Origin: an uncultured bacterium
GTDB lineage: Bacteria > Chlamydiota > Chlamydiia > Chlamydiales > SM23-39
DNA length: 64,000 nt
Reading direction: 5' to 3'
Assembly (NCBI GenBank): GCA_964458995.1
Contig: CAYWKW010000001.1
Span: forward strand, 3,462-67,461
The notes beneath the pieces were generated by a model. That model saw nothing but the letters and a program-made list of their open reading frames with translations, had not been told where the DNA came from and did no database searches. Within the stretch, counting starts at the first letter, position 1, and every line of letters starts with the position of its first letter. A program made the position numbers and the translations under genes. Positions 10,776 through 57,796 of the stretch are shown here, piece by piece.

Positions 10776-11404
10776 ACGCTCATCAGAGACTCGAGCGACG
10801 AGAGGATTTTATCCAGGGCTTTTCTTCTATGAGAAATCCGGTTTTTCACCGACTCTCCCAATTCAGCAAAAGTTTTGCTGTAGCCATGTTTAACAAAGAG
10901 AGGATCGTAGCCAAAACCGCCCCCGCCCCGATCTTTTGTCAAAAGCACACCCTCGCAAGTGCCCTTCACACATTTCTTCAACCCTGCGGGCGAAGCCAGA
11001 GCAATTGAGCACTCGAAAAAGGCTTGCCGGTCCTCTTCCATCAGATGCTGCATCTCTTCGAGCAGCTTCTTCCGGTTTTCCAAATCGGTCGCATCGTTGC
11101 CCGCATACCTTGCTGAAAAGACACCTGGCGCTCCGCTCAAAGCAGGCACAACCAAGCCCGAGTCATCGGCCAGAACCCATCGATTCAACACTTTCGCAGC
11201 ATGAACAGCCTTCGTCGTAGCATTTTCCTCAAAAGTCTTCCCCGCTTCTTCAGCCGGAACATATTCGGGAAAATCGGACAAACTAAACAAATCAAATCTG
11301 CCCAATGACTTGAGCATGGTGCGAAATTCCCGCACTTTATGGATATTTGTGCTGGCAATGACGAGTTCAATGGGCGGCGCTGGACTGTTTTTCGAAGAAG
11401 ACAT
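10772..11404 (-). CDS. rdgB: Non-canonical purine NTP pyrophosphatase (dITP/XTP; RdgB/HAM1 family)
   Basis: Motifs LVIASTNIHKVREF, ENATTKA, ADDSGLVVPALSGAPGVFSARY, GGFGYDPLF and SHRRKAL. Confidence 0.85.
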   Translation of the reverse strand: MSSSKNSPAPPIELVIASTNIHKVREFRTMLKSLGRFDLFSLSDFPEYVPAEEAGKTFEENATTKAVHAAKVLNRWVLADDSGLVVPALSGAPGVFSARYAGNDATDLENRKKLLEEMQHLMEEDRQAFFECSIALASPAGLKKCVKGTCEGVLLTKDRGGGGFGYDPLFVKHGYSKTFAELGESVKNRISHRRKALDKILSSLESLMSV

Positions 11405-11574
11405 ACCCCCACAATAATGAATCGATTTTTTCTAATCAAAGCAAATTCCAGCGGCGGGAGGAAAGGTTGCCATTGCTCGTGACTGTCTATCTTACGACTC
11501 GGACTCAGAGAGAGAGGACTCAGGAAAGTGAGCAATATTGACTTGATTATAGGTGCGTTATATAGCTCTGATTT

Positions 11575-12723
11575 ATGGGTGTCAAGCCATTCCAGATTCA
11601 TATTGAGGACAGGGAGCTGAAGGATCTCCAAGAACGGCTCCAGAGGACCCGTTGGCCGGATGAAGTTCAGGGCGCAGGGTGGGAGTATGGAGCTGAGTTG
11701 GCCTATATCAAGAAATTGATTGAATATTGGAAAACTGAATATGATTGGCGCGCAACAGAAAAAAAGCTGAATGCTTACAGACAATTTCGTGTAAATATCG
11801 ATGGGTTGAATCTCCATTTCATTCATGAAAAAGGGAAAGGGAAAAATCCATTCCCTCTGATTATGACCCATGGCTGGCCTAGTTCGTTTGTTGAATTGGT
11901 GAAATTGATTCCCCTATTGACCGATCCAGCCAATCACGGTGGAGATCCGGATGATTCCTTTGATGTCGTGATTCCTTCTTTGCCCGGCTTTGGATTCTCC
12001 GATCGATTCACAAATCGGGGAGGGAATGTTTTTAAAATCGCCGACTTGTGGCAAAAGTTGATGACCCAATCCTTGGGATATCGTCGATTTGGCGCACAGG
12101 GAAGTGATTGGGGCGTTAGCATTTCCGCCCGTTTGGGATTTGCTTACCCCGATCAAGTATCGGGGATCCACGTGACGACTTTAACGGGAGGAACGCCCCA
12201 AATGCCCTACCCGAATACCCGCAAGTTATCGAAGAGTGAGGAGGAGATGATTGAGCGGCGAGATCGTTGGCGGGAAGTACATGGAGGATATGCTCATGTA
12301 CAGCGAAGGGAACCCCAAACCTATGCCTATGGTCTCAATGATTCGCCCGCAGGACTTGCGGCTCTATTGGTGGATAAGTTTCGAAGCTGGAGCGATTGCG
12401 GCGGAAATGTAGAAATGCGCTTTACCAAAGATGAACTGCTCACAAATATCGCTATTTACTGGTTTACCCAAACGATTCATTCTTCGATGCGCATCTACTT
12501 CGAACACAATCAAAGTCCATGGATTCTCGGGCCGGAAGAAAAGATCCAAGTCCCCTGCGCAGTCGTTTCATTTCCCAAAGAGATGAACCGCCCACTTCGA
12601 GAGTGGGCTGATCGATATTACAATGTTCAGAGATGGACCGAATTTTCTTCTGGTGGACACTTTCCTGCCTATGAGGAACCCCAGTTATTGGCTGCAGACA
12701 TCCGCGCATTTTTCCACCGGTGA
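11575..12723 (+). CDS. Epoxide hydrolase (alpha/beta hydrolase with an EHN N-terminal domain)
   Basis: FQIHIEDRELKDLQERLQRTRWPDE, FRVNIDGLNLHFIH, LIMTHGWPSSFVE and GAQGSDWG (nucleophile D) match microsomal-type epoxide hydrolases. Confidence 0.75.
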   Translation: MGVKPFQIHIEDRELKDLQERLQRTRWPDEVQGAGWEYGAELAYIKKLIEYWKTEYDWRATEKKLNAYRQFRVNIDGLNLHFIHEKGKGKNPFPLIMTHGWPSSFVELVKLIPLLTDPANHGGDPDDSFDVVIPSLPGFGFSDRFTNRGGNVFKIADLWQKLMTQSLGYRRFGAQGSDWGVSISARLGFAYPDQVSGIHVTTLTGGTPQMPYPNTRKLSKSEEEMIERRDRWREVHGGYAHVQRREPQTYAYGLNDSPAGLAALLVDKFRSWSDCGGNVEMRFTKDELLTNIAIYWFTQTIHSSMRIYFEHNQSPWILGPEEKIQVPCAVVSFPKEMNRPLREWADRYYNVQRWTEFSSGGHFPAYEEPQLLAADIRAFFHR

Positions 12724-12782
12724 GGCAGCAGGGAGTGCCAGATGTTCTTTTTCTGATGGCGGCATGGACACTAATCGAGAAG

Positions 12783-13109
12783 TCATAAAATCTCCACGAT
12801 CACATCTGTCATAACTGGATGGATATGATAAGTATCCATTTGAAAGAGATTCGGTTCGTCCAACACAACAGCCTGATATTCTGGAGTTTGATAAGCTTTT
12901 TGTTGATCTGTCGCGGATCGGAACCACAATTCTGCAATCCCGTCAATGGGATCATCTACTCCAGCTGGAGAATGGACATGATATTGCACATATTTTAGAA
13001 GGCCGGGAATCTTGGAAATCAGTGGTCCATGAACTGTTTTCCAATAATTTCTAAAGTCTGTAACACTCATTCCTGGTTTGCGCCTGAGAATCACGAAACG
13101 TTTGATCAT
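12783..13109 (-). CDS. EthD domain protein
   Basis: 108 aa. MIKRFVILRRKPGMSVTDFRNYWKTVHGPL and LKYVQYHV resemble the EthD family. Confidence 0.5.
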   Translation of the reverse strand: MIKRFVILRRKPGMSVTDFRNYWKTVHGPLISKIPGLLKYVQYHVHSPAGVDDPIDGIAELWFRSATDQQKAYQTPEYQAVVLDEPNLFQMDTYHIHPVMTDVIVEIL

Positions 13110-13162
13110 TACCGCACTTTCCTACTATACCGGATAATCAATGGATAGCGTTCCATTGAATG

Positions 13163-13324
13163 GATCTCTTTTTTAAGTGCCTAACATTATATATCCTAAT
13201 ATTATGTTGCAAAACATAATGTTTTCTGCACAACAATTTTCTCGCTGAAAAACCCAAACAGCCCTCTCTTCCCCCCGATGTCCGCATCATTGATGATAAA
13301 GAGGTCATCGCCGCTTTGCGCTAA
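13163..13324 (+). pseudogene. Deletion relic of the AAA/DUF234 ATPase gene (5' leader fused to the last ~80 nt of coding sequence)
   Basis: 13163-13235 matches 16895-16970, the leader of the intact gene including the palindrome. 13240-13324 matches 18310-18394 (gaaaaacccaaacag...ccccccgatgtccgcatcat...gcgctaa). About 1.33 kb of coding sequence is missing. Confidence 0.85.
13201..13220. promoter_or_regulatory. Palindromic putative operator (copy in the relic leader)
   Basis: attatgtt-gcaa-aacataat is a perfect 8-bp inverted repeat. It is preceded by the duplicated motif taacattat / taatattat. Confidence 0.35.
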
Positions 13325-13388
13325 AATTTTTATTTGTCTTAAAAATTATTTTTGCTAATCTTCTCGGCTCTTCAACGAGGAGATTCTT

Positions 13389-14882
13389 ATGTCAATTGAT
13401 GCAATCAGCGACTTTGACCCTCTTTCCGAGTGGTTACGAAGCGAAGAGGCGGGCTCTCTGCAAAAGCAACTGGAAGAAAAAATTATTCGACTTCTTTTCA
13501 ACCAGAGCGAGCCCCACTTTTTGCAGATGGCGGCGCAACTCGCCTGGATTGGCGCACGTCCTGAAAACCGGCCTGCGATTCTCAAGGAGGTCATTCAGCT
13601 CTCTCTAGATTCCATCGACCCGTGTAAATGCCGATTTCTGAAGGCGCTAAACAAAGTTGGCCACTTTTTTGTGGAGCACAAAACTGAAATCCTCGTTGGG
13701 ATTGCCGTTGCAGCCACTGGACTCGGCCTAGCTGTTGCAACGGGGTATGCCATCGGTGTAAACGTTTGCGGAGTGGCTGTTGCGGGAGCAGGAGCCGTAA
13801 TCGACCTGAGCAAGGAGGAAAAGCCGCCCATTCCTCCGGTTCCGCCGCTCAGCTCGAAAGCAGAGATCGACCACTATCGGCAAGGCCTGCCCACTTATCA
13901 ACCGCAGCTCAATCTTCCCCCTTCCTCGACAGATCTTTGGGTCACTTCGGAGGGCATTCGGGTCAACGGCCAATTTTATCCAAACGAACTGCTGAACCAA
14001 TCCCACTTTGCCGACACCTACAAAGAGCTTTACCCCACCTTCCCTCCATTGACCGTAACGCCATCGGAACTGCCCTTGAATAATACCACCACCCTTCCCC
14101 CATCGCCATCAACGGAGAAACCCGTTGAAACAAATCCCTTTCCTGCCCCAAATATTCCATCCCATGAAATTCCCCCTGTCATCAGCAGCCGCTACACTCT
14201 TTCAGGCACGAAAAACTTCTCGGGTTACATAGGTTGGATGAATGGGATTAACAACACTTTTGAAGAATCGAAAACCAGCGGCCTATACCTTCAGGGCTTG
14301 GCAGGGGGCCACGCCATTAATGGAATCTACAACTGCTCACATACTCCGCTGGTGGATCTCGTTGAAGCGGGCCTCTTAAATCATCACGGTTCCTCACCCA
14401 TAACGGCGAATCTATTGAGGAAAGAGTGGACTGTTTTCCATGAAACGCACGCAGACAAGCCCAACGACAAGTTGCTCTGGGTTTGCCATAGTCAAGGGGC
14501 GCTTCATGTCAGAAACGCGCTCCTCAATTTGCCTCCCGAAATCCGCAACCGAGTGATTGTGATCGCGATCGCCCCAGCTGCGGTAGTGCCTAAAAGCCTT
14601 TGCTTTAAGTCGTACAATTTCGCAAGTGAAAAAGACATTGTCTACAGGTTCGAACCGGCGCCTCCTTCAGAATGTCGTGTAGTCGATGGTGTAGGAATCC
14701 CTCGAGTAGATCCTCTCCCCGACTATAGGGATGAGCTGATCATTCTACCAGCCCATCCTGGAGCTACAGGCATCGATCATGAATTTCAAAGTCTGACTTA
14801 TCAACCGTCTTTAAATAAGATAATTGACAAGTATTTGAAACAGAATGGAGAATATCTCCCAGAAGATAAAGGAAAAGACTGA
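13389..14882 (+). CDS. Membrane-anchored lipase-like alpha/beta-hydrolase: N-domain, ~38-aa bilobed hydrophobic segment, Pro-rich linker, C-terminal hydrolase-like domain
   Basis: 497 aa. The hydrophobic stretch ILVGIAVAATGLGLAVATGYAIGVNVCGVAVAGAGAVI spans aa 101-138. The Pro-rich linker spans aa 145-265. The C-domain has a nucleophile-elbow-like VCHSQGA (Ser368, nt 14490-14492). Later D (SEKD ~416) and H (GIDHEF 464) fall in Ser-Asp-His order. Family is not recognised. Confidence 0.7.
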   Translation: MSIDAISDFDPLSEWLRSEEAGSLQKQLEEKIIRLLFNQSEPHFLQMAAQLAWIGARPENRPAILKEVIQLSLDSIDPCKCRFLKALNKVGHFFVEHKTEILVGIAVAATGLGLAVATGYAIGVNVCGVAVAGAGAVIDLSKEEKPPIPPVPPLSSKAEIDHYRQGLPTYQPQLNLPPSSTDLWVTSEGIRVNGQFYPNELLNQSHFADTYKELYPTFPPLTVTPSELPLNNTTTLPPSPSTEKPVETNPFPAPNIPSHEIPPVISSRYTLSGTKNFSGYIGWMNGINNTFEESKTSGLYLQGLAGGHAINGIYNCSHTPLVDLVEAGLLNHHGSSPITANLLRKEWTVFHETHADKPNDKLLWVCHSQGALHVRNALLNLPPEIRNRVIVIAIAPAAVVPKSLCFKSYNFASEKDIVYRFEPAPPSECRVVDGVGIPRVDPLPDYRDELIILPAHPGATGIDHEFQSLTYQPSLNKIIDKYLKQNGEYLPEDKGKD

Positions 14883-14884
14883 TA

Positions 14885-15562
14885 ATGAAACCATGGATCT
14901 TTCTCTTGGCGATTTTGATGGCGGCTTGTCATCAATCAGGCATGCTCGATAGAAAAACAGTAGATAAAGAAAAAATCGCTGACATGGTTTTGGGAAAAGT
15001 GGCTTATCAGATGAAACAAGAGGCGAACTTACGTCCTTGTGGAACTATGGGACAAATGATGAATGAAATACAACGCTTGGGATTAGATTTTTTTTATTTC
15101 CAACCTGTAGACATAGTGCAAGGACGTAGATTGGCTGTTCAAGCAGTGGGGGCTATGCTCAACGAAATCAATCAGGAGCCACGCATCCGCCCCTATTTGA
15201 TTCGCTATCCATTTCAACCTCGTAACGTTGAGATTACAATTTTTCTACGCAATCCTGACAATTCTGACCCGCCTCAAGATGCTTTGCAAGTGATTGATGC
15301 CAGTGAAGGGGTGATCCTCTATCAAATACACAATCCTTCTGAAACAGGATACAATTTCGTTACAATCTATAAAGAAACCTATCAAGAAGCTTTAGATAGA
15401 CTGGCCGACCCATCATTGCCTTTGGCTCAATTTGAGCCAGAGCCTGATGAGCTAAGTCCCGAGGAGTGGGCCAGGCTGCGTCGAAATATCGGCTTTGTGT
15501 CCGACGATGGGGCTGTTTACCATCTTGGAGAAGACGGAAAATGGGTAAAAAATTCTCAATAG
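14885..15562 (+). CDS. Lipoprotein, paralog 1 of a 4-member family of unknown function
   Basis: It starts 3 nt after the hydrolase stop (ctgataATG). Lipobox LAILMAAC is present. It shares EANLRPCGTMGQMMNEI, FYFQPVDI, INQEPRIRPYL, IYKETYQEALDRLADPSLPL and EEWARLRRNIGFVSDDGAVYHLGEDGKWVKN with the other copies. Confidence 0.8.
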   Translation: MKPWIFLLAILMAACHQSGMLDRKTVDKEKIADMVLGKVAYQMKQEANLRPCGTMGQMMNEIQRLGLDFFYFQPVDIVQGRRLAVQAVGAMLNEINQEPRIRPYLIRYPFQPRNVEITIFLRNPDNSDPPQDALQVIDASEGVILYQIHNPSETGYNFVTIYKETYQEALDRLADPSLPLAQFEPEPDELSPEEWARLRRNIGFVSDDGAVYHLGEDGKWVKNSQ

Positions 15563-16227
15563 TTTGGATCTTTCTTTTGGCTAGTTTAGTAGTTGGCTGT
15601 AGTCGAACACTCCCCCCAGACCTAAGGATAAGTGAAAAGCAAAAGCTGGCTAATGAAGTCAGAAGAAAAGTTGCAAAACAAATGAAACAAGAGGCGAATT
15701 TACGTCCCTGCGGAACTATGGGGCAAATGATGAACGAGATCGAAGTTTTAGGATTAAGTTTCTTTTACTTTCAGCCTGTAGATATCGCAGAAGGACGTAA
15801 ATTGGCTGTTCAAGCAGTGGAGGCCATGCTCAAGGAAATCAATCAGGAACCACGCATCCGCCCCTATTTGGTTCGCTATCCATTCCAACCTCGTAACGTT
15901 CAGATTACAATCCACTTGCGAAATCCAGACAATTCAGAGCCACCTCAGGAAGCTCTCCAAGTTGTCAGAGCAAGTGAGGGCATGCTTCGTTACAAAATAG
16001 ACGATTCGACGAGAAATGGGTTAATCACAATCTACAAAGAAACGTATCAGGAGGCTTTGGATAGACTGGCAGACCCATCGCTGCCTTTGGTCTCCTTTGA
16101 ACCAGATCGCAAAAAGCTAAGTCCGGAGGAGTGGGCCAGGCTGCGTCGAAATATCGGCTTTGTGTCCGACGATGGGGCTGTTTACCATCTTGGAGAAGAC
16201 GGAAAATGGGTAAAAAATCCTCAATAG
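15541..16227 (+). CDS. Lipoprotein, paralog 2
   Basis: I prefer the start at ATG 15541 (MGKKFSIVWIFLLASLVVGC lipobox). It overlaps the last 22 nt of paralog 1 in another frame. The longer ORF-track start at 15466 would read through the paralog 1 C-terminus out of frame. Confidence 0.8.
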   Translation: MGKKFSIVWIFLLASLVVGCSRTLPPDLRISEKQKLANEVRRKVAKQMKQEANLRPCGTMGQMMNEIEVLGLSFFYFQPVDIAEGRKLAVQAVEAMLKEINQEPRIRPYLVRYPFQPRNVQITIHLRNPDNSEPPQEALQVVRASEGMLRYKIDDSTRNGLITIYKETYQEALDRLADPSLPLVSFEPDRKKLSPEEWARLRRNIGFVSDDGAVYHLGEDGKWVKNPQ

Positions 16228-16892
16228 TTTGGATCTTTCTTTTGGCTAGTTTAGTAGTTGGCTGTAGTCAAACACTTCCTCCGGATGTGAGGGTAAGTGA
16301 AAAACAAAAGTTGGCGAATGAAGTCAGAAGAAAAGTTGCAAGACAAATGAAACAAGAGGCGAATTTACGTCCCTGCGGAACCGTGGGGCAAATGATGAAT
16401 GAGATCGAAGTTTTGGGATTAAGTTTTTTTTACTTCCAGCCTGTTAATATCGCAGAGGGACGAAAATTAGCTATTCAAGCAGTGGAGGCAATGCTTAAAG
16501 AAATCAATCAGGAACCACGCATCCATCCTTATTTGATTTATTATCCTTTTGAACCTCAAAATGTCGAGATTACAATCTTTTTGCGCAACTCGGACAATTC
16601 AGATCTGCCCCAAGACGCTTTGCAGATTATTGTTGCCAGCGAAGGATCTTTACGTTTTAAAATCAACCATCCTGCCAATGGGGGACTTCTGACGATCTAT
16701 AAAGAAACGTATCAGGAGGCTTTGGATAGACTGGCAGATTCATCGCTCCCTTTGGTCCCCTTTGAACCAGATCGCAAAAAGTTAAGTCCGGAAGAATGGG
16801 CCAGGCTGCGTCAAAATATCGGCTTTACATCCGACGACGGGTCTGTTTACCACCTCGGAGAAGATGGGGGTTGGGTAAAAAATCCCCAATAA
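16206..16892 (+). CDS. Lipoprotein, paralog 3
   Basis: The junction architecture matches paralog 2: ATG 16206 lies inside the ...GEDGKWVKNPQ* tail of paralog 2. Lipobox LLASLVVGC is present. This is the most diverged copy. Confidence 0.8.
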   Translation: MGKKSSIVWIFLLASLVVGCSQTLPPDVRVSEKQKLANEVRRKVARQMKQEANLRPCGTVGQMMNEIEVLGLSFFYFQPVNIAEGRKLAIQAVEAMLKEINQEPRIHPYLIYYPFEPQNVEITIFLRNSDNSDLPQDALQIIVASEGSLRFKINHPANGGLLTIYKETYQEALDRLADSSLPLVPFEPDRKKLSPEEWARLRQNIGFTSDDGSVYHLGEDGGWVKNPQ

Positions 16893-16932
16893 TTGGGGTC
16901 TCTTTTTTAAGTGCCTAACATTATACATCCTA

Positions 16933-16956
16933 ACATTATGTTGCAAAACATAATGT
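16933..16956. promoter_or_regulatory. Palindromic putative operator upstream of the ATPase gene
   Basis: acattatgtt-gcaa-aacataatgt is a perfect 10-bp inverted repeat about 35 nt upstream of the ATG at 16991. It is preceded by the direct repeat cctaacattat x2. It is conserved in the relic at 13201-13220. Confidence 0.4.
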
Positions 16957-16990
16957 TTTATTGCATAATAATGGACAGAAGGGAGGCCTT

Positions 16991-18394
16991 ATGAAATTCG
17001 TCAATCGCCATAAAGAGCTGAGACGGCTGGAGCGATTGTTTCGGTCCCGTAAAGCAGGGTTGGCCGTCATTTGGGGCCGGAGGCGCGTAGGTAAGACTCG
17101 CCTTTTGTTAGAGTGGACAGAAAAAAGCAAGGGCGTCTACTTCGTAGCGGATGAATCATCCCCTTCGATACAGAGGAAATTCTTTGCTCTGGCTCTAGAG
17201 CAGGCTTTGCCAAGATTTTCAGATGCAGAATATCCTGATTGGCAATCCTTGTTCATAAGATTGGCCCGCGATGCCCGCCAAGCAAAATGGAGGGGACCTA
17301 TTGTGATTGACGAGCTGCCCTATTTAATTTCTGGGTCCCCGGAACTTTCGAGCATCCTGCAAAAATTTGTCGACCATGAGGCGAAAAAAGCCAACCTTGT
17401 CTTAGTGCTTTGCGGGTCTTCCCGACGGATGATGCAGGGCGCTATTTTAGATGAGTCAGCGCCCCTTTATGGAAGAGCAGATGAACTGATCAAGCTGCAA
17501 CCGATAGCGATTGGTTACATGAAAGAGGCTTTAAAGCTGAAAACTCCAAGGGCTATTGTGGAAGCCTACGCCATTTGGGGGGGAATTCCCCGCTATTGGG
17601 ATTTGGCAAGCAAAGTGGATAGCAATTTGCATGAAACCATCGATCGACTGGTTCTCGATCCGATGAGTCCCTTAAACGAAGAGCCGCAGCGCCTTCTCTA
17701 TGAAGAATCTCCTCCTGCTATCCACCTCAAACCTATTTTGGATGCGATTGGGCTGGGAGCGAATCGTCTCTCCGAGGTAGCGAGCCGTATGGGAGAGCCC
17801 GCCACAGCTCTCGGTCGACCGATTGAGCGATTGATTGAGCTAGATCTCATCCAACGGGAAGTTCCTTATGGAATGGATTTGGAAAACTCCAAAAAAACGC
17901 TCTATAAGATCAAGGACCCCTTCCTCCGGTTTTGGTTCAAGGTGGTTGCTTCCAGACGCAGCCTTTTTTCTCAAGTTTCTCCATCTGTTCGGCATCAATG
18001 GCTCAAGGAGGAGCTCCCTGGTCTATTCGCTACAGCCTGGGAAGAACTTTGCCGTGCCGCCGTCCCCATTCTTTCAGAGGGCTGGGAAGCGATTCACGAG
18101 CCAGCCGGACGCTTTTGGCAAGGACAAGGCCCCGAATGGGACATCCTATCTCAATCTCCCGATGGTCGCTATTTTCTGATTGGTGAAGCAAAGTGGATAG
18201 AGAAAAAGCCATCTGCTCAATGGATACGAAAAACCATTCAAGAGCTGAAAAACAAAGGCATACCTCCCATCAAACGGCATCCTCATGCTCATCTTCACTA
18301 TGTCCTTTTTCTCCCCGAAAAACCCAAACAGCTCTCTCTTCCCCCCGATGTCCGCATCATCGATGCTAAAGCGGTCATCGCTGCCTTGCGCTAA
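16991..18394 (+). CDS. AAA-type ATPase (archaeal-ATPase-like P-loop) with a C-terminal DUF234/PD-(D/E)xK-like domain
   Basis: FVNRHKELRRLERL followed by Walker A GRRRVGKT. Walker B-like VIDELPYL. The C-terminal EWDILSQSPDGRYFLIGEAKW resembles a restriction-endonuclease-like D...E-x-K motif. GGAGG lies just upstream of ATG 16991. Confidence 0.7.
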   Translation: MKFVNRHKELRRLERLFRSRKAGLAVIWGRRRVGKTRLLLEWTEKSKGVYFVADESSPSIQRKFFALALEQALPRFSDAEYPDWQSLFIRLARDARQAKWRGPIVIDELPYLISGSPELSSILQKFVDHEAKKANLVLVLCGSSRRMMQGAILDESAPLYGRADELIKLQPIAIGYMKEALKLKTPRAIVEAYAIWGGIPRYWDLASKVDSNLHETIDRLVLDPMSPLNEEPQRLLYEESPPAIHLKPILDAIGLGANRLSEVASRMGEPATALGRPIERLIELDLIQREVPYGMDLENSKKTLYKIKDPFLRFWFKVVASRRSLFSQVSPSVRHQWLKEELPGLFATAWEELCRAAVPILSEGWEAIHEPAGRFWQGQGPEWDILSQSPDGRYFLIGEAKWIEKKPSAQWIRKTIQELKNKGIPPIKRHPHAHLHYVLFLPEKPKQLSLPPDVRIIDAKAVIAALR

Positions 18395-18404
18395 GAATAA
18401 AATT

Positions 18405-18537
18405 TTTGCTAATCTCCTCGGCTCCTTCATTATCGGCAAGGTCTGCCCACTTATCAATCGTCTTTAAATAAGGTAATTGACAAGTATTTGAAACAGAAAT
18501 GAGAATATCTTCCAAAAGAAAAAGGAAGAAAAAAATA
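18405..18537 (+). pseudogene. Deletion relic of the lipase-like gene (leader, a 30-nt internal piece and the 3' end)
   Basis: tttttgctaatctcctcggctccttc equals the leader at 13349-13375. attatcggcaaggtctgcccacttatcaa equals 13868-13897. tcgtctttaaataaggtaattgacaagtatttgaaacag... equals 14805-14887. The junction falls at the 12-nt direct repeat acttatcaaccg present in the intact gene at ~13886 and ~14793. Confidence 0.85.
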
Positions 18538-19209
18538 ATGAAACTGAGTGTCCTTCTTTTGGCTATTTTGATGATGGCCTGTAGTCAAACACTTCCTCCT
18601 GATTTAAGGGTAAGTGAGAAACAGAAGCTGGCGAATGAAGTCAGAAGAAAAGTTGCAAAACAAATGAAACAAGAGGCGAATTTACGTCCCTGCGGAACTA
18701 TGGGGCAAATGATGAACGAGATCGAAGTTTTAGGATTAAGTTTCTTTTACTTTCAGCCTGTAGATATCGCAGAAGGACGTAAATTGGCTGTTCAAGCAGT
18801 GGAGGCCATGCTCAAGGAAATCAATCAGGAACCACGCATCCGCCCCTATTTGGTTCGCTATCCATTCCAACCTCGTAACGTTCAGATTACAATCCACTTG
18901 CGAAATCCAGACAATTCAGAGCCACCTCAGGAAGCTCTCCAAGTTGTCAGAGCAAGTGAGGGCATGCTTCGTTACAAAATAGACGATTCGACGAGAAATG
19001 GGTTAATCACAATCTACAAAGAAACGTATCAGGAGGCTTTGGATAGACTGGCGGATACATCGCTGCCTTTGGTCCCCTTTGAACCAGATCGCAAAAAGTT
19101 AAGTCCGGAGGAGTGGGCCAGGCTGCGACGAAATATCGGCTTTGTGTCCGACGATGGGTCCATTTACCACCTAGGGGAGAATGGGAGCTGGATAAAAAAT
19201 CCTCAATAG
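18538..19209 (+). CDS. Lipoprotein, paralog 4 (orphan copy behind the hydrolase relic)
   Basis: Start MKLSVLLLAILMMAC (lipobox). The context aaaataATGaaact mirrors the paralog 1 junction. The body is identical to paralog 2 over ~419 nt (18634-19052 = 15652-16070). Confidence 0.8.
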   Translation: MKLSVLLLAILMMACSQTLPPDLRVSEKQKLANEVRRKVAKQMKQEANLRPCGTMGQMMNEIEVLGLSFFYFQPVDIAEGRKLAVQAVEAMLKEINQEPRIRPYLVRYPFQPRNVQITIHLRNPDNSEPPQEALQVVRASEGMLRYKIDDSTRNGLITIYKETYQEALDRLADTSLPLVPFEPDRKKLSPEEWARLRRNIGFVSDDGSIYHLGENGSWIKNPQ

Positions 19210-19221
19210 TGCGGCCCTTTC

Positions 19222-21393
19222 CTACTTTTTTTGGTCAAAGTAGTTATCGATATCCGTGACCTTAAAGTTCTCCCCCTGAAACTCAAACTTTTCTCCAATC
19301 GAGCGCCCCTTCATGGCTTGCGCAAGCTTGGATTGGAAGGAGAGAATGTGCTTCTCAGGATCAGCATCCCAGGGACCAAGGAGGGTGAAACGGAGATGTT
19401 CGCCCTTGGAATCTTGGCAGTGGACAACGGAACCAACCGTTACTTCGTCCGTTGAAACATCTTCCGGTCTTAGGATGCGGGCACGGGCAATCTGATCGGA
19501 AAGAAACTTGAGCTCGGACTGAAGCCGGTCGCGCCGCTCCAGCGCAGCTTTAAATTCGGCGTTTTCACGCAGGTCCCCGAGAGCTCGGGCCGCTTCGATC
19601 TCTTTCGCGTTGTTGACGGTCTCTACGGTGGCTATCTGCTGAATGCGAAATTGAGTCTTTTGATAGCCCTCTTGCGTGGTCCAGATTACGTTCTCCTCTA
19701 GGCCAGAATGATCTTTCTCTTTTCTCAAACGAGTCAAAGAGGGATACACTACTTCCGCAAGTGAATGGAGAATCTTAATATCGTGATCGGTGAGAGAACC
19801 ACATTTGGTTGATAGAAGGAGATATTCTTTGACCTCATCGATGCTCGATTGCTGCATGATATCACGAACAATCTTGTAGCGGTCCGAAGTGAGGAGCGAG
19901 ATGATCTTTTTGGCCAGGTCGCGGTGCTGAGGCTTCTGCTCGACAAAGTCTAAGATGATTAACAGGCCTTCAAAAAACCGGTTTTTCCCCTGAGCGTCAG
20001 AGAAGGGCAGCTTGGACTTTTTATCGATGATTTTTTGGAAATACCAAACAAAAACTTCAGGGAAAGAGAGGGGATGAATGAGGAGAGAATTGAGCTTTTG
20101 TTTCAAAACTTCTTTTGTTTGAGAAGTATCGAGCTCGCCTAAAATAAAGTCCCTCAGAAGGTTCTGATCAACAGTAAAGAGAAGGTCTAAATAGGTCTCT
20201 TGCCAATCCTTACGAAGCTTTTTGACTTGCTGCAAGGTTCTCTTCTGAAACCCCATCACTTCAATCGAGCGGATGACATCGGGAGCCGTCTGTAAATGGG
20301 CGACCATCTCTGAAATCTGATCGTTCACTTTGGCAACGCCAAGATCTTCTAAGAAAAACAAAACTTGAAGTTTCTGGCTGTCAATCAGCTGTTCTTGAGC
20401 CAAGACTTCTTTAAAACGGGCTTCAAGAGAGGTCTTGAATTCGACGTTTTTCAAAGTTTCTGGGAAGTCGCGCAAGAATGCGTAAACCATTTGAATGGTT
20501 GCATTGACGCTGGGTTTGGCTTCCAGAGCTTTATGCAATGCAACTTCGTGAGGAACGTCTTCTAAAAGCAACCGGAATGGATCCTTTAGCTCTTTGGGAC
20601 TTTCAATTTTTGTATCTTTCTTTAACTTCGCACGGGCGGTTTGCCACCAGCGATTCCAATCGTCTGTGGGAATCACGAGATCGCAAAGCTCTTCTTTGAT
20701 TTCAGCCGCCGTTTTGGGCCCTAAATCAGAGAGCATCATGCGGATGACTTCGCTCGGACTTTCTCTGGCTTCTTTCTCCAAAGCATCGGGTTCGCCAAAG
20801 CGGCGAGAATAAAAGTGTTTAGGCGTTAAAGGAATTAGAGTCTTAAAGGCTTTTTCAAAAGAGAAGTGTTGAGGACCGATCACATATTCGAATTCAAGGG
20901 TCAATTCCTCGCGCACCAAAGAAACTTCGATGATTTCTCCCGTGCCCCATCCCCCCGTATGAAATACGTAGTTCCCTTTTTTCATGTGGGTTAGAAGTTC
21001 GAAATTGCGAATCGCCGACTGAAATCTCTCTCGATTGCGAAGACCAATCAGCCGCAGCTTTTCAGATAAAAGAGGATCGGTCCCATTCAGATTTTTTAAG
21101 TATTCGGTGGCCAAGTCCGCTAGCTCTTCACTATTAGACGTCTCTAAATCGAAAACCAAACGCAAGACCCCGTGCGCGAGAGAAAGGTCTTTAAGTTCTC
21201 TCCACAAAGGAAGAATCCGTTCGACATGAACACCAAAAGGTTTTGCTAAATCGGAAGCTTTAACGCTTTCCAAAACAGCGATCATTTCTTCCCCATCAGG
21301 CTGATCGCCGTAGCAATACTCTTCCCAGATCTTTAGGAACCCGGGATAATCATTATTTTGTATTCGATCGCGAAAATCTTTTAAATAAGCCAT
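19222..21393 (-). CDS. greA: Transcription elongation factor GreA, long chlamydial form
   Basis: The C-terminal ~150 aa are canonical GreA (ALGDLRENAEFKAALERRDRLQSELKFL, VTVGSVV, LLGPWDADPEKHILSFQSKLAQAMKG). They follow a ~570-aa N-terminal extension, as in Chlamydiae GreA (~715 aa). Confidence 0.85.
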   Translation of the reverse strand: MAYLKDFRDRIQNNDYPGFLKIWEEYCYGDQPDGEEMIAVLESVKASDLAKPFGVHVERILPLWRELKDLSLAHGVLRLVFDLETSNSEELADLATEYLKNLNGTDPLLSEKLRLIGLRNRERFQSAIRNFELLTHMKKGNYVFHTGGWGTGEIIEVSLVREELTLEFEYVIGPQHFSFEKAFKTLIPLTPKHFYSRRFGEPDALEKEARESPSEVIRMMLSDLGPKTAAEIKEELCDLVIPTDDWNRWWQTARAKLKKDTKIESPKELKDPFRLLLEDVPHEVALHKALEAKPSVNATIQMVYAFLRDFPETLKNVEFKTSLEARFKEVLAQEQLIDSQKLQVLFFLEDLGVAKVNDQISEMVAHLQTAPDVIRSIEVMGFQKRTLQQVKKLRKDWQETYLDLLFTVDQNLLRDFILGELDTSQTKEVLKQKLNSLLIHPLSFPEVFVWYFQKIIDKKSKLPFSDAQGKNRFFEGLLIILDFVEQKPQHRDLAKKIISLLTSDRYKIVRDIMQQSSIDEVKEYLLLSTKCGSLTDHDIKILHSLAEVVYPSLTRLRKEKDHSGLEENVIWTTQEGYQKTQFRIQQIATVETVNNAKEIEAARALGDLRENAEFKAALERRDRLQSELKFLSDQIARARILRPEDVSTDEVTVGSVVHCQDSKGEHLRFTLLGPWDADPEKHILSFQSKLAQAMKGRSIGEKFEFQGENFKVTDIDNYFDQKK

Positions 21394-23725: not shown

Positions 23726-24156
23726 TGTAAATTTTTCGGGGATGTAAACGATCCTCGAGCCTTTAGGCAGAGTTGATTCACTCACAACTCTGTGTGAAGG
23801 AAGCCCAATTTGAAACACCAGAGAATAAAAATTTGCCGCAGTTTGGTTATCTCTTCGGAATGAAGAAGAATAATGGCTTAAAACCGCAGAGATAACAAAG
23901 GGATACATAAAGACTCTGCTTTGTCTAAACAGAGAGGCCGCCCCAAATCCGAAGCTAAGAGAAGCAGAGGCAAAAAAACAACTGCCCCATCTTTGCGCCC
24001 CTCTTTTTGCATCCTCATAGCCAAGAATGCAGAGGGCTTGATGAGAATCCAGGGGTTGATAAGTCACCCCTCTGTGTTTTGCATATACAGGACCAGACAT
24101 GGGCGAAAAATATACCCGAAACTGCTTTTTTAGAATAGCTCCGAATGAGAACCTAT

Positions 24157-24214
24157 AATGTAAAGCCGCTTTACATTTGGTCGAGGGGTCCCCGAAAATG
24201 GTTAGGGTCGGGGA
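24157..24214 (-). repeat. Single inverted-orientation copy of the dispersed palindromic repeat
   Basis: Perfect palindrome aatgtaaagc-c-gctttacatt (24157-24177) followed by tggtcgaggggtccccgaaaatgg. This is the reverse complement of the ...ttttcgggg-cccc...ggt-aatgtaaagc unit at 8759 and 37177. Confidence 0.8.
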
Positions 24215-24343
24215 CTCGGACTCGGACTCGGACTCGGACTCGGACTCGGACTCGGGCAAGGGCAAGGGCAAGGGCAAGGGCATGGACTCGGACTCGGACT
24301 CGGACTCGGACTCGGGCATGGGCATGGGCATGGGCATGGACTC
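24212..24343. repeat. Hexanucleotide microsatellite mosaic (22 in-phase hexamers)
   Basis: Counted directly: 7x GGACTC, 4x GGGCAA, 1x GGGCAT, 5x GGACTC, 4x GGGCAT, 1x GGACTC. The run is uninterrupted and all units are in one register. Confidence 0.95.
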
Positions 24344-24379
24344 GGATATGGGAGGACTGCTTTCTGTTTAGATCGGGCG

Positions 24380-25366
24380 CTAGAGTTGGTCCAGGACTTG
24401 TTTGGCGGCGTAGGTAAAGATGAGGTCGGCGCCAGCTCGCTTGATGCTGAGGAGCGTTTCGTAGAAGACCTTGGGCCCGTTGAGCCAGCCCGCTTGATGG
24501 GCAGCCATAACCATGGAGTACTCGCCGCTGACGTGGTAGGCGGCGATGGGGCGCTTGGTTTGGTCGCGCAGCTTGGCGATGATGTCGAGATAGAGGGTGG
24601 CGGGCTTTATCATGAGGATATCGGCGCCCTCTTCCTCATCAAGGGCGGCTTCGAAGAGGGCTTCGCGCCAGTTGGCTGGATCCATTTGGTAGGTCTTCTT
24701 GTCGCCAAAGCCAAGCTTGACTTTGATGGCTTCGCGATAGGGGCCATAGAGCGAGGAGGCATACTTGGCGCTATAAGAGAGAATGCCGACGTTGGTGTGC
24801 CCTTCCTCATCGAGGGCTTCGCGAATGGCGCCTACACGGCCGTCCATCATGTCGCTGGGGGCCACAAAGTCAATGCCCGCTCGAGCTTGCATGAGGGACA
24901 TTTGAATGAGGCAGTCGATGGTTTCGTCATTGAGGATTTCCCCTTTGGAATTGGCGAGGCCGTCATGGCCGTGGGTTGTGAATGGGTCGAGGGCCACGTC
25001 AGCCATAAGGCAGAGGGTGGGAAGGGAAAATTTGAGTTCGCGAATGGCTCGGGCAAGAAGGCCGTCCGAGTTCCACGCTTCAATGGCATCGGGAGTTTTT
25101 AGAGAGGGGTCAAGGACAGGGAAGAGAGCGACCGATTGGATGCCGCGATCGTGGAACTCCTTGGCTTCTTTGACGGCTAGATCGATCGAGAGGCGCTCTA
25201 CTCCCGGCATGCTTTCAATGGGAATGCGCTTTTTTTCCCCTTCAATGAGAAAAAGGGGGTGGACGAGATCGTGGGCTGTGAGATGCGTCTCTTGCACCAT
25301 TCTCCGAATGGCTTCCGATTTGCGATTCCGTCTGAGACGGATGGGAATATTTAAAAGCTGCGTCAT
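24380..25366 (-). CDS. hemB: Porphobilinogen synthase (delta-aminolevulinic acid dehydratase)
   Basis: RLRRNRKSEAIRRMVQETHL, HPLFLIEG, DVALDPFTTHGHDG, APSDMMDGRV, SYSAKYASSLYGPYREA, MIKPA and YHVSGEY are classic HemB motifs, including the Schiff-base Lys context. Confidence 0.9.
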   Translation of the reverse strand: MTQLLNIPIRLRRNRKSEAIRRMVQETHLTAHDLVHPLFLIEGEKKRIPIESMPGVERLSIDLAVKEAKEFHDRGIQSVALFPVLDPSLKTPDAIEAWNSDGLLARAIRELKFSLPTLCLMADVALDPFTTHGHDGLANSKGEILNDETIDCLIQMSLMQARAGIDFVAPSDMMDGRVGAIREALDEEGHTNVGILSYSAKYASSLYGPYREAIKVKLGFGDKKTYQMDPANWREALFEAALDEEEGADILMIKPATLYLDIIAKLRDQTKRPIAAYHVSGEYSMVMAAHQAGWLNGPKVFYETLLSIKRAGADLIFTYAAKQVLDQL

Positions 25367-55915: not shown

Positions 55916-57796
55916 TCAGCTAACAAATCTTTTCCACCATAATGCAAAGTTAAAGAGATACCACACTTGAGGGGCGTGGCCCTGATCAAAATAGCGCATC
56001 ACTTCTGCGCGGTCAAAAAAATCAGTTTGATCGCAAAACTGATTCAACTCATCCCGCATGCGAGAGCCGAGTTTGTCATAGAGCCATTCGTAGACGGGGA
56101 CGCCAAAGCCTTGTTTGGGGCGGTCAATGATGGCGTCGGGAATGACTCCGCGAACAGCCTTTTTGAGGATGTATTTGCTAATGTCGTTTTTCGTCTTGAT
56201 CGCTTGCGGAATGCTCATAGCCAGCTCCACAAATTTGTGATCGAGAAAGGGAACTCGACCTTCAAGGGAGACTCCCATAGACATTTTGTCGACGCGCATG
56301 AGGAGCAGTTCAGGAAGACGGAGATTCAGATCGGCGTACGACATCCAGTTAAGAGGCGTTTTTTCCCAGGCTTTTTGTTGGAAGCGTTGGTAAACGGGTT
56401 CGATGGCTTGCCACGAAGTGAGCCCTTTTAACTTTTGACGCAGCCGCGGCGAGAGGAGTTTTTGCTTTTGCGCCTCGGTAAAGGACTCAGCTCCGCTCCA
56501 AAAAATGGGTTGGTCAAGAGAGCCGCGGCGAAGGCGTTCATAATGCATAGAAGTCTCTTTGCCGAGGGCTTTAATTCCGAAAAGCCCAAGTTTTTTGATG
56601 AAGTTGGGAACGGGAAGATTGTCGAGATTTTGGAGTTTAAGGGCCGTTTTCCAACTGGAGTAGCCCCAAAAAAGCTCATCGGAGCCTTCTCCGACTTGGG
56701 CGACGATGACGCCATTGTCGCGGGCGAGTTTGGAGACGTAATAGACGGGAACGCAGACGGGGTCGGCAATGGGCTCATCTTGCAGGTAGATCATCTGGGG
56801 AAGGAAATCGAGAAGGTCATCGACATTGAGGAGCCGCTCATGGTAGCGGGCGTTCACTTCCTGCGCCATTTGCTTAGCAAAGTGGAGCTCATTCTGGTAA
56901 GAGGCATATTCGCCCTGATAACCGATGCTAAATGTTTTGACCTCTTGCTCTCCTTCTGAAAAGAGCGCGGCATTGGTGCTCGAATCGATTCCGCCCGAAA
57001 GAAAAATGCCAACGGGGACGTCGCTCACTTTTCGCAACCGGACAGCGGTTTTCAGTTCGGAGAGAATGCGGCTGGCAATCTCCTCTTCGGAATGGTTTGT
57101 CAGCGGCGTCGTATGATCCCAAACATCCCAGTAACGGTTTTCTAGAATCGATCCATCTTCCCGGATCCGAAGCCAGGTTCCTGGGGATAGTTTCTTGATT
57201 CCATCAAAGAGAGTTTGGGGCGCAGGGGTCGTTAAAAAGGACAAATAGTGATAAAACGCCTCTTCGTGGACGGCTCTTTTTTGTTCGGGATCTTGAAGGA
57301 GGGCTTTGATTTCGGAGGCAAAAGTGATGCGGCCATGATGGATGGAATAATAGAGCGGTTTGATGCCGATGCGGTCGCGGACGAGCCACAGTTCCCGTTT
57401 CTTTTCATCCCAAATGGCGATGGCGAACATGCCGCGAAAACGGTGAAGGCAGTCAATGCCCCACTCTTCAAAGGCGTGAATGATTACTTCGGTATCGGAA
57501 TGGTCGGTTTTCCACTGATAATGGGGAAGCTGTTTTCGAATCTCCGCATGGTTATAAATTTCTCCATTGAAAACAATTTGGATGGAGCCATTCTGATTGC
57601 TCATAGGTTGACTGGCGCTTTCAGACAGATCGATGATCGACAGGCGCCGAAAGCCAAGCCCTACTTTTTGATCTTTTGAAATCCAAATTCCCTCTCCATC
57701 GGGGCCGCGATGTTTGATCGTATCGATCATCGATTGGACGTACGACTTCGTCACTTTGAAAGAATTAAAAGCAAAAACACCAGTCAATCCGCACAT
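55916..57796 (-). CDS. asnB: Glutamine-hydrolysing asparagine synthase family amidotransferase (AsnB/WbpS-like)
   Basis: MCGLTG N-terminal nucleophile Cys, the FNGEIYNH GATase-II motif, and the SGGIDSS PP-loop. Confidence 0.85.
   Translation of the reverse strand: MCGLTGVFAFNSFKVTKSYVQSMIDTIKHRGPDGEGIWISKDQKVGLGFRRLSIIDLSESASQPMSNQNGSIQIVFNGEIYNHAEIRKQLPHYQWKTDHSDTEVIIHAFEEWGIDCLHRFRGMFAIAIWDEKKRELWLVRDRIGIKPLYYSIHHGRITFASEIKALLQDPEQKRAVHEEAFYHYLSFLTTPAPQTLFDGIKKLSPGTWLRIREDGSILENRYWDVWDHTTPLTNHSEEEIASRILSELKTAVRLRKVSDVPVGIFLSGGIDSSTNAALFSEGEQEVKTFSIGYQGEYASYQNELHFAKQMAQEVNARYHERLLNVDDLLDFLPQMIYLQDEPIADPVCVPVYYVSKLARDNGVIVAQVGEGSDELFWGYSSWKTALKLQNLDNLPVPNFIKKLGLFGIKALGKETSMHYERLRRGSLDQPIFWSGAESFTEAQKQKLLSPRLRQKLKGLTSWQAIEPVYQRFQQKAWEKTPLNWMSYADLNLRLPELLLMRVDKMSMGVSLEGRVPFLDHKFVELAMSIPQAIKTKNDISKYILKKAVRGVIPDAIIDRPKQGFGVPVYEWLYDKLGSRMRDELNQFCDQTDFFDRAEVMRYFDQGHAPQVWYLFNFALWWKRFVS

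What the first reader, a model, noticed from the sequence alone, without database searches (positions are those of the whole stretch)
13163..19209. Segmental duplication with reciprocal deletion relics; one junction sits on a 12-nt microhomology
Two modules share the same backbone: leader with palindrome, ATPase, leader, hydrolase, then lipoprotein(s).
- **Module A (13163-16892):** the ATPase is reduced to a 160-bp relic, with the leader fused to the last ~80 nt. The hydrolase is intact.
- **Module B (16895-19209):** the ATPase is intact. The hydrolase is reduced to ~130 bp.

The hydrolase relic junction reads ctgcccACTTATCAAtCGtctttaaat. The intact gene carries ACTTATCAACCG twice (~13886 and ~14793). 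This is what deletion by recombination or slippage between short direct repeats would leave.

Complementary decay of two duplicated copies points to recent, ongoing remodelling of this island without any visible IS element.
Basis: seen in the sequence. Interest (0 to 1): 0.6.

Follow-up and report, generated by a model that had tools for sequence, protein, structure and literature searches.

The report
Duplicated gene block with complementary losses
In an environmental chlamydia genome, a roughly 5-kb block of genes was copied head-to-tail and each copy then lost a different gene, with one loss occurring exactly between two copies of a 12-letter repeat; this is a clean example of an ordinary way genomes change.

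Summary
Module B (16896-19209) is collinear with module A (13162-16895) as far as the lipoprotein signal-peptide codons (~18582), at 91.5% identity over 284 alignable nt.

- **Module A** keeps a 75-nt leader joined to the last 28 codons of the ATPase gene. 1,334 nt are missing.
- **Module B** keeps the ATPase but only two fragments of the hydrolase gene.
  - A 903-nt in-frame deletion sits on ACTTATCAACCG (13893 and 14796). This is the longest direct repeat in the intact gene.
  - A ~497-nt deletion removed the ribosome-binding site and start codon, with about 2 nt of microhomology.

Independent contigs from read set SRR9179563 reproduce every junction at 100%.

New findings:
- The palindromic leader is the ATPase gene's own upstream element. 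It is conserved in other Chlamydiota genomes, and its -10 box has decayed in the orphan copy.
- The hydrolase-lipoprotein pair is conserved in at least 21 Chlamydiota loci.
- lipo4 is a mosaic: its signal peptide resembles lipo1 and its body resembles lipo2, including 419 identical nt.
- The duplication junction itself lies on a TGGATCT-type short repeat.

There is no IS element and no tRNA gene. This is a known evolutionary process, well documented here. Interest is low to moderate.

The parts
13162..13236 (+). Leader copy A: orphan upstream element of the ATPase gene. The palindrome AATATTATGTT-GCAA-AACATAATGTT is at 13198-13223. The -10-like box has decayed to CACAAC.
   Evidence: 61/64 identical to 16896-16959. 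Aligned with ATPase upstream regions from three other genomes.
13237..13324 (+). ATPase relic: last 28 codons plus the stop codon. It is joined directly to the leader, and 1,334 nt of gene body are missing.
   Evidence: 80/88 identical to 18307-18394. tblastn places residues 440-467 here at 86% identity.
13325..13388 (+). Spacer and hydrolase leader, including the ribosome-binding site.
   Evidence: 13348-13370 is 22/23 identical to 18402-18424.
13389..14882 (+). Intact hydrolase gene (497 aa). It encodes an N-terminal helical region, a bilobed hydrophobic segment, a proline-rich linker and a C-terminal alpha/beta serine hydrolase domain (CHSQG S368, D416, H464).
   Evidence: Invariant residues in 16 homologues. 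AlphaFold C-terminal domain has pLDDT 80-95. Foldseek matches esterases and lysophospholipases.
13893..13904 (+). Left copy of the 12-nt direct repeat ACTTATCAACCG, encoding TYQP in frame.
14796..14807 (+). Right copy of the 12-nt direct repeat, encoding TYQP in the same frame. It lies 903 nt from the left copy.
14885..15562 (+). lipo1, a lipoprotein gene (lipobox LMAAC).
   Evidence: ORF. Family alignment shows an invariant lipobox Cys. dN/dS is 0.14-0.19 against its paralogues.
15541..16227 (+). lipo2. Its start overlaps the last 22 nt of lipo1. It contains the 419-nt tract 15652-16070, which is identical to 18634-19052.
16206..16892 (+). lipo3, the last gene of module A.
   Evidence: The Logan contig L002 links its 3' end to leader B.
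16884..16898 (.). Hairpin CCCCAATAATTGGGG with T-runs on both strands, at the A|B junction. It resembles a bidirectional terminator.
   Evidence: consensus scan only.
16896..16972 (+). Leader copy B. The palindrome is at 16932-16957. A promoter-like TTGCAA-17-CATAAT lies at 16941-16969.
16991..18394 (+). Intact ATPase gene (467 aa; Pfam ATPase_2 plus DUF234; PADLOC candidate PDC-S27).
18395..18427 (+). Copy of the spacer and hydrolase leader. It ends at deletion junction 2, where A 13375-13871 is missing.
18428..18460 (+). Hydrolase relic fragment 1 (codons 162-172). It ends in the retained repeat copy ACTTATCAATCG (18449-18460), which is deletion junction 3.
   Evidence: (D9).
18461..18535 (+). 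Hydrolase relic fragment 2, the 3' end of the gene, now with a premature TGA. It retains the promoter-like TTGACA-18-GAGAAT at 18477-18506.
18538..19209 (+). lipo4, a mosaic gene. The signal peptide up to the lipobox Cys resembles lipo1, and the mature part resembles lipo2/lipo3. 18634-19052 is identical to lipo2, and the 3' end is unique.

Best explanation
**What it is.** The window comes from an uncultured Chlamydiota genome. I infer an ancestral block ordered as: [ATPase leader - ATPase - hydrolase - lipoprotein array].

**Step 1: duplication.** The block was duplicated head-to-tail. The likely mechanism is unequal exchange between two short similar sequences (TGGATCTyTyTTTT). One lies just upstream of the ATPase leader and the other at the 5' end of a lipoprotein gene.

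**Step 2: complementary loss.** With every gene present twice, either copy could be lost.
- Copy A lost the ATPase body through a 1,334-nt deletion with about 1 nt of microhomology. What remains is an orphan promoter/operator whose -10 box then decayed, plus 28 terminal codons.
- Copy B lost the hydrolase through two deletions.
  - One removed about 497 nt, including the ribosome-binding site and start codon.
  - The other removed 903 nt in frame. It arose by slipped mispairing or short-homology recombination between the two ACTTATCAACCG repeats.
- The lipoprotein genes of copy B collapsed by homologous recombination into one chimeric gene, lipo4.

**Step 3: continuing exchange.** Gene conversion still moves sequence among the paralogous lipoprotein genes.

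**What survived, and a possible reason.** The retained hydrolase 3' end carries a promoter-like site and the ribosome-binding site for the downstream lipoprotein gene. That may be why it was kept.

**Shown versus inferred.** Shown: collinearity, the junction sequences, the repeat at the junction, the mosaic tracts, and purifying selection on all four lipoprotein genes. Inferred: the order of events, the mechanism of each deletion, and any promoter activity.
For: - **Collinear, same-strand blocks** with E 1e-24 and 1e-29. Block coordinates are and protein-level relics.
- **The 903-nt deletion.** The 12-mer lies at both deletion endpoints, with one copy left at the junction. It is the longest direct repeat in the gene, and only 4.4% of codon shuffles reach 12 nt.
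- **Assembly support.** Independent contigs reproduce all junctions at 100%.
- **The leader belongs to the ATPase.** It is conserved upstream of ATPase orthologues in L044, L045 and L048. TGCATAATAAT is invariant there, and only the orphan copy is mutated, to TGCACAACAAT.
- **Hydrolase-lipoprotein pairing** is seen in at least 21 other Chlamydiota loci. Tandem lipoprotein genes occur in L008, L020 and L029, and a duplicated pair occurs in L036.
- **Mosaic lipoprotein genes.** 419-nt and 93+50-nt exact tracts lie within otherwise 50-90% identical paralogues.
- **Selection.** dN/dS is 0.14-0.23 for all lipoprotein pairs.
- **Duplication junction motif** is found at 13161, 15565, 16230 and 16895.
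- **No mobile-element signs:** no transposase domain, flanking inverted repeat or tRNA gene.
Against: - The source is a metagenome-assembled contig. The Logan contigs come from SRR9179563, which may be the same read set, so they confirm the junction sequences but not the order or number of lipoprotein genes.
- The 419-nt exact tract is longer than a short read and could reflect assembler behaviour rather than gene conversion.
- No close relative shows a pre-duplication or alternative state. The best hydrolase homologue is 52% identical.
- lipo3 and lipo4 are 83% identical and lipo1 and lipo4 are 77% identical. A simple duplication predicts about 91%, so extra recombination steps must be assumed.
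- Two of the three deletion junctions have almost no microhomology.
- The duplication-junction motif is T-rich and has 5 unrelated near-matches in the 64-kb window.
Confidence: 0.8

Rival explanations
1. Assembly artefact. Modules A and B are alternative alleles of one locus in two co-existing strains, or a repeat-induced mis-join, which the assembler stitched together in tandem.
For: The source is a metagenome-assembled contig of 72,561 nt. The region holds exact repeats of 419, 93 and 50 nt, and k=31 contigs break at them.
Against: Contig L002 joins a distinctive lipo3 3' end directly to leader B. L001 joins ethD to leader A. Module B therefore sits behind a lipoprotein gene, not behind ethD as an allele of A would. 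The two modules differ by 8.5%, and each has unique junctions.
Confidence: 0.07
2. Module B was not made by duplication in place. It was brought in from a related strain by recombination (an added foreign copy), and each copy then lost a gene.
For: The ATPase with its leader behaves as an independent unit. It sits in a different neighbourhood in every genome examined, while staying 79-86% identical at nucleotide level. The 8.5% divergence between modules could be between-strain divergence.
Against: B carries not only the ATPase but also the hydrolase leader, hydrolase fragments and a lipo1-type signal peptide, in the same order as A. The A|B junction lies on a short repeat present in the local sequence. 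That fits unequal exchange within the locus.
Confidence: 0.1
3. A mobile element (IS, transposon or integrative element) copied or rearranged the block.
For: None was found. The only hint is that the ATPase gene changes neighbourhood between genomes.
Against: There is no transposase or integrase domain in any ORF of 13.1-19.3 kb. No flanking inverted repeats were found. The window has no tRNA gene and no Rfam match.
Confidence: 0.03

Closest known systems
Tandem segmental duplication followed by reciprocal (complementary) gene loss. This is the duplication-degeneration pattern, best known from reciprocal gene loss after whole-genome duplication in yeasts (from my own knowledge).
   Same: There are two collinear copies, each gene survives in only one copy, and the relics mark where the lost genes were.
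   Different: The scale here is one operon-sized block in a bacterial genome. The loss is by discrete deletions whose junctions can still be read, and a paralogous lipoprotein array has blurred the right-hand end by recombination.
Deletion between short direct repeats, by replication slippage or RecA-independent short-homology recombination. This is classically described in E. coli lacI and in plasmids (from my own knowledge).
   Same: The repeat is present at both endpoints in the intact gene. One copy is retained at the junction. The deleted length equals the repeat spacing of 903 nt.
   Different: The event is inferred by comparing two diverged paralogues, not a parent and its mutant. The retained repeat has since acquired one substitution.
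Gene-family expansion by tandem duplication in environmental chlamydiae (Domman et al. 2014, PMC4209131; title and abstract seen).
   Same: The lineage is Chlamydiota, with tandem paralogues of lineage-specific genes.
   Different: The families differ: here an alpha/beta hydrolase and its partner lipoprotein, not ubiquitination-related genes. The array here is small.
Lipase-type effector with an adjacent lipoprotein immunity gene (type VI Tle-Tli pairs), or lipase with a downstream foldase (LipA-Lif). Both are analogies from my own knowledge.
   Same: A serine hydrolase gene is followed immediately by a gene for an exported lipoprotein. The partner gene is multiplied, and it is retained after loss of the enzyme gene.
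   Different: The lipoprotein model has no sequence or fold match to any known immunity protein or foldase. No secretion-system linkage was seen. The hydrolase has an Inc-like hydrophobic hairpin instead.

Membership tests
Tandem segmental duplication with reciprocal loss | Two adjacent, same-strand, collinear copies of one block | tested here: met
   Five collinear blocks at 90-93% identity, with B starting 1 nt after A ends.
Tandem segmental duplication with reciprocal loss | Each gene is intact in one copy only, and the relic is in the homologous position in the other copy | tested here: met
   The ATPase is intact in B and its relic (residues 440-467) is in A. The hydrolase is intact in A and its relics (residues 162-175 and 464-496) are in B.
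Tandem segmental duplication with reciprocal loss | The right-hand ends of the two copies are homologous at the same divergence as the rest | tested here: not met
   lipo3 and lipo4 are 83% identical and lipo1 and lipo4 are 77%, against 91.5% for the relic blocks. lipo4 is a mosaic. Later recombination must be assumed.
Tandem segmental duplication with reciprocal loss | The arrangement is real in the organism's DNA, not produced by assembly | tested here: inconclusive
   k=31 contigs from SRR9179563 reproduce all junctions. No long reads or read mapping were available.
Direct-repeat-mediated deletion | The repeat lies at both endpoints in the undeleted sequence, one copy is left at the junction, and the deleted length equals the repeat spacing | tested here: met
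   Repeats at 13893 and 14796, spacing 903 nt. The junction copy is at 18449-18460 with one substitution.
Direct-repeat-mediated deletion | The coincidence is unlikely by chance | tested here: met
   It is the longest repeat in the gene. A repeat of 12 nt or more appears in 4.4% of codon shuffles. The junction falls exactly on it.
Direct-repeat-mediated deletion | The same mechanism applies to the other two junctions | tested here: not met
   Only about 1 nt (ATPase deletion) and about 2 nt (hydrolase 5' deletion) are shared at those junctions (sequences).
IS- or transposon-mediated rearrangement | A transposase or integrase gene, or terminal inverted repeats | tested here: not met
Pfam ATPase_2 / DUF234 ATPases (PADLOC candidate PDC-S27) | Profile match above the curated threshold | tested here: met
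   ATPase_2 scores 75 bits against a cut-off of 33.2. DUF234 scores 30.3 bits against 22.5. PDC-S27 matches at E 2e-42. [quoted passage not shown]
Alpha/beta serine hydrolases | Alpha/beta fold with a nucleophile elbow (G-x-S-x-G type) and a Ser-Asp-His triad | tested here: met
   CHSQG Ser368, Asp416 and His464 are invariant in 16 homologues. The confident C-terminal model matches esterases, APT2 and cutinases at E 5e-4 to 1e-2 with target-normalised TM-score (TMt) about 0.5. No Pfam model matches. Enzymatic activity was not tested.
Bacterial lipoproteins | Signal peptide ending in a lipobox with an invariant Cys | tested here: met
   Cys20 is invariant in 25 homologues and is preceded by a hydrophobic stretch. 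Lipidation itself cannot be tested here.
Effector-immunity pair (Tle-Tli type) | The partner protein is related in sequence or fold to known immunity proteins, and the pair is linked to a secretion system | tested here: not met
   No PDB fold match (best E 0.04). No Pfam, NCBIfam or PADLOC match. Only the gene adjacency is shared.

The most novel reading that the evidence does not exclude
The hydrolase and the lipoprotein may form a functional pair specific to Chlamydiota: a membrane-anchored esterase or lipase together with a cognate exported partner that inhibits, protects against, or matures it. On this reading the lipoprotein genes are kept and multiplied, even behind a dead hydrolase gene (lipo4, dN/dS about 0.2), for the same reason that orphan immunity genes persist in toxin-immunity loci. 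The locus would then record selection for partner diversity rather than neutral decay.
Probability: 0.15. Interest if true: 0.55.

Novelty: new member of a known kind. Interest (0 to 1): 0.3.

Why it matters
This is a tidy natural example in which both the birth of a bacterial tandem duplication and its later pruning can be read base by base.
- One junction shows the textbook signature of deletion between short direct repeats.
- The example shows how a duplicated block can become fixed as two complementary halves.

The work also has practical by-products.
- It defines a conserved palindromic upstream element of a widespread chlamydial ATPase, which is a phage-defence candidate (PDC-S27).
- It defines a conserved, uncharacterised hydrolase-lipoprotein gene pair in Chlamydiota.

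Both are worth annotating. Neither overturns current understanding.

Tried and rejected
- **Rfam** scan of 12500-19800 at E up to 1 found nothing, so the leader is not a known RNA family.
- **Tandem Repeats Finder** found nothing, because the 665-nt array period exceeds its 500-nt limit.
- **Hydrolase profile against PDB sequences** gave only compositional matches of the hydrophobic hairpin to MakA/Nhe toxins (E 0.02) and a weak cutinase match. I did not treat these as homology.
- **Genome collection scan** found neither the source genome nor any close relative.
- **Metagenome scan for the palindrome** gave only two loci.
- **Related species L006** (84-87% nt identity) could not show the ancestral state, because its contig stops inside greA.
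- **Codon-position test on relic substitutions** gave 5/3/9 at positions 1/2/3. This is too few to date the deletions relative to the duplication.
- **A weak lipoprotein tblastn hit** at 57128-57274 lies inside an asparagine synthase ORF and is spurious.
- **ATPase as part of an ancestral conserved module** with the hydrolase was rejected. It is unlinked in 36 hydrolase loci and in 4 ATPase loci.
Full report

Yes. A blastn comparison of 16890-19300 against 13100-16900 gives a strictly collinear, same-strand series of blocks. A long-gap global alignment gives the block edges.

| Module B | Module A | Identity |
|---|---|---|
| 16896-16972 | 13162-13237 | 91% (E 1e-24) |
| 18307-18398 | 13237-13327 | 90% (E 1e-29) |
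| 18402-18429 | 13348-13374 | 93% |
| 18428-18457 | 13872-13901 | 93% |
| 18449-18535 | 14796-14882 | about 91% |

- After the last block the alignment runs into the lipoprotein genes.
- At protein level, the last 28 residues of the ATPase are recognisable at 13238-13321 (86% identity). Hydrolase residues 162-175 and 464-496 are recognisable at 18428-18529.
- Over the 284 alignable nt of leader and relic, the modules differ at 24 sites, which is 91.5% identity.

**2. The junctions**

There are three deletions, not two.

- **Deletion 1 (in A).** The ATPase body, equivalent to B 16973-18306 (1,334 nt), is missing. The leader is joined directly to the last 88 nt of the gene. At most 1 nt is shared at the junction (sequences).
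- **Deletion 2 (in B).** A 13375-13871 is missing. This is about 497 nt covering the ribosome-binding site, the start codon and 161 codons. About 2 nt (CA) are shared at the junction.
- **Deletion 3 (in B).** 903 nt (301 codons, in frame) are missing between ACTTATCAACCG at 13893-13904 and the same 12-mer at 14796-14807.
  - One copy remains at 18449-18460 as ACTTATCAATCG.
  - Both copies encode TYQP in the same frame.
  - An imperfect extension (CAAgGyCTG) lengthens the repeat.
  - The 12-mer is the longest exact direct repeat in the gene. Only 4.4% of codon-shuffled versions contain a repeat that long.
  - That the junction falls exactly on it is the signature of slippage or short-homology recombination.

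Deletion 2 was not noticed.

**3. Artefact?**

- The window proteins are on record from one NCBI contig of 72,561 nt, so the source is a draft or metagenome-assembled genome.
- Two contigs assembled independently by Logan from SRR9179563 equal window 11070-15490 and 16763-18663 at 100%.
  - They cover ethD - leader A - ATPase relic - hydrolase - lipo1.
  - They also cover lipo3 3' end - leader B - ATPase - hydrolase relic - lipo4 5' end, including the point where lipo4 switches parentage.
- Module B lies behind a lipoprotein gene and not behind ethD. It is therefore not simply an allele of A from another strain.
- What remains unverified is the number and order of the lipoprotein genes, and the 419-nt exact tract.

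**4. What the genes are**

- **ATPase (16991-18394).** It matches Pfam ATPase_2 and DUF234 and the PADLOC phage-defence candidate PDC-S27 at E 2e-42. [quoted passage not shown]
  - Orthologues are abundant in Chlamydiota at 60-92% identity, and almost all are about 467 aa.
  - The gene sits in a different neighbourhood in every genome examined.
  - Homology to the window stops at the leader on one side and at the stop codon on the other.
- **The 'leader with palindrome'.** This is the ATPase gene's own upstream element. The sequence TAACATTAT-N6-TAACATTATGTTGCAAAACATAATGTTTT-N3-TGCATAATAAT is conserved in L044, L045 and L048. It is absent in L050.
  - It contains a promoter-like TTGCAA-17-CATAAT.
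  - In the orphan copy of module A the palindrome is nearly intact, but the otherwise invariant TGCATAATAAT reads TGCACAACAAT. This is as expected for a promoter that no longer has a gene to drive.
- **Hydrolase (13389-14882).** It has no Pfam hit. Its family is confined to Chlamydiota metagenome-assembled genomes.
  - The family has an invariant CHSQG serine, Asp416 and His464.
  - The C-terminal domain is modelled confidently. It matches small esterases, acyl-protein thioesterases, cutinases and the Legionella effector RavL.
  - The N-terminal half contains a bilobed hydrophobic segment of the kind seen in chlamydial inclusion-membrane proteins. That resemblance comes from my own knowledge and was not tested.
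- **Lipoproteins.** The four genes have an invariant lipobox cysteine. The model is confident but has no PDB match. dN/dS is 0.14-0.23 in all pairs, so all four appear functional.
- **The hydrolase-lipoprotein pair.** It recurs in at least 21 of 36 related loci, usually with overlapping stop and start codons. Sometimes there are two lipoprotein genes (L008, L020, L029) or a duplicated pair (L036). The ATPase is never part of it elsewhere.

**5. The lipoprotein end is a mosaic**

- lipo1, lipo2 and lipo3 form a head-to-tail array with a 665-671-nt period. Each start codon lies 22 nt inside the preceding gene.
- lipo4 has three parts:
  - It follows module A's path through the hydrolase 3' end and a lipo1-type signal peptide, up to the lipobox Cys codon.
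  - It then switches to a lipo2/lipo3-type mature region.
  - It ends in a unique 3' part.
- Within lipo4, 18634-19052 is identical to lipo2 15652-16070 over 419 nt. The gene junction formed by the lipo1 3' end and lipo2 5' end shares 93+50 exact nt with the junction formed by the lipo2 3' end and lipo3 5' end.
- dS between lipoprotein paralogues is 0.65-1.4. This is far above the roughly 0.09 divergence of the module backbone, so the array predates the segmental duplication.
- The simplest history is as follows:
  1. The ancestor was leader - ATPase - hydrolase - lipo1 - lipo2 - lipo3 - lipo4 - greA.
  2. An unequal exchange occurred between TGGATCTCTTTTTT upstream of the leader (13161) and TGGATCTTTCTTTT at the 5' end of lipo4. 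Equivalent copies of the second sequence remain at 15565 and 16230, and the junction copy is at 16895.
  3. The second copy's lipoprotein genes then collapsed by homologous recombination into the chimeric lipo4.
  4. The three deletions followed.
  5. Gene conversion continues.
- The order of these steps is inferred.

**6. Why these pieces survived (inference)**

- The retained hydrolase 3' end in B carries a promoter-like TTGACA-18-GAGAAT (18477-18506). Its counterpart lies at 14824-14853 in A, upstream of lipo1. It also carries the ribosome-binding region of the lipoprotein gene. A larger deletion would have silenced lipo4.
- A hairpin with T-runs on both strands (16884-16898) sits at the A|B junction. 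It could insulate lipo3 from the duplicated divergent promoter.

**7. No mobile element**

There are no transposase or integrase domains, no flanking inverted repeats, no tRNA genes and no Rfam families.

**8. Timing**

- The 8.5% backbone divergence is smaller than the 13-16% nucleotide divergence from the nearest available relative, L006. The duplication therefore probably postdates that split, but it is not fresh.
- Relic substitutions fall 5/3/9 on codon positions 1/2/3. This is too few to date the deletions.
- 'Ongoing remodelling' rests on the exact conversion tracts.

**9. Verdict**

The phenomenon belongs to known kinds: tandem duplication, complementary loss, direct-repeat deletion and gene conversion in a paralogue array. 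It is a well-preserved instance rather than a new mechanism.

The more open questions are side products. One is the function of the conserved hydrolase-lipoprotein pair, and whether the multiplied lipoproteins act as cognate partners. The other is the role of the conserved palindrome upstream of the chlamydial PDC-S27-type ATPase.

Noticed in passing
window 16915-16972 and 13181-13236; L044 3320-3400; L045 9920-10000; L048 1005-1086: A palindromic element (TAACATTATGTTGCAAAACATAATGTT followed by TGCATAATAAT) is conserved upstream of ATPase_2/DUF234 (PDC-S27-type) ATPase orthologues in several Chlamydiota genomes. The flanking genes differ in every case. It is absent upstream of the orthologue in L050. 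It may be an operator or a bidirectional promoter, since TTGCAA is its own reverse complement.
   Followed up: partly
window 16991-18394 versus loci L044, L045-47, L048, L050: The ATPase is far better conserved across Chlamydiota (up to 92% aa, >120 clusters of about 467 aa) than its neighbours. The hydrolase's best homologue is 52% identical. Yet the ATPase occupies a different neighbourhood in each genome. This suggests either a mobile single-gene unit or strong selection combined with frequent rearrangement.
   Followed up: partly
window 13389-15562; loci L003-L040: A hydrolase gene followed directly by a lipoprotein gene is a conserved, uncharacterised pair in at least 21 Chlamydiota loci. 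The lipoprotein's confident AlphaFold model has no PDB match.
   Followed up: partly
window 15541-15562, 16206-16227: In the lipoprotein array, each gene's start codon and first seven codons lie inside the last 22 nt of the preceding gene, in another reading frame. The repeat period (665 nt) is therefore shorter than the gene (687 nt).
   Followed up: yes
L043 (Logan SRR9179563, 3,353 nt): The same sample holds a second hydrolase-lipoprotein pair (50% and 68% identical to the window's genes). It is either a paralogous locus of the same genome or comes from a second chlamydial organism in the sample.
   Followed up: no
L009 10001-10912: This hydrolase homologue (303 aa) lacks the hydrophobic hairpin and the linker (query residues 73-278), and it has no lipoprotein gene downstream.
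   Followed up: no
window 23731-24386 versus L006 3098-7873: The related species (84-87% nt identity) carries about 4.8 kb between yjbH and hemB that the window lacks. The extra genes encode a LysR-type regulator, a B3_4 domain protein, LysE and an SSF transporter.
   Followed up: no
window 19222-21393 (minus strand); L006 and L016 contig ends: Contigs of two related genomes both end inside the long chlamydial greA gene next to this locus. This may hint at an assembly-breaking repeat or variability there.
   Followed up: no
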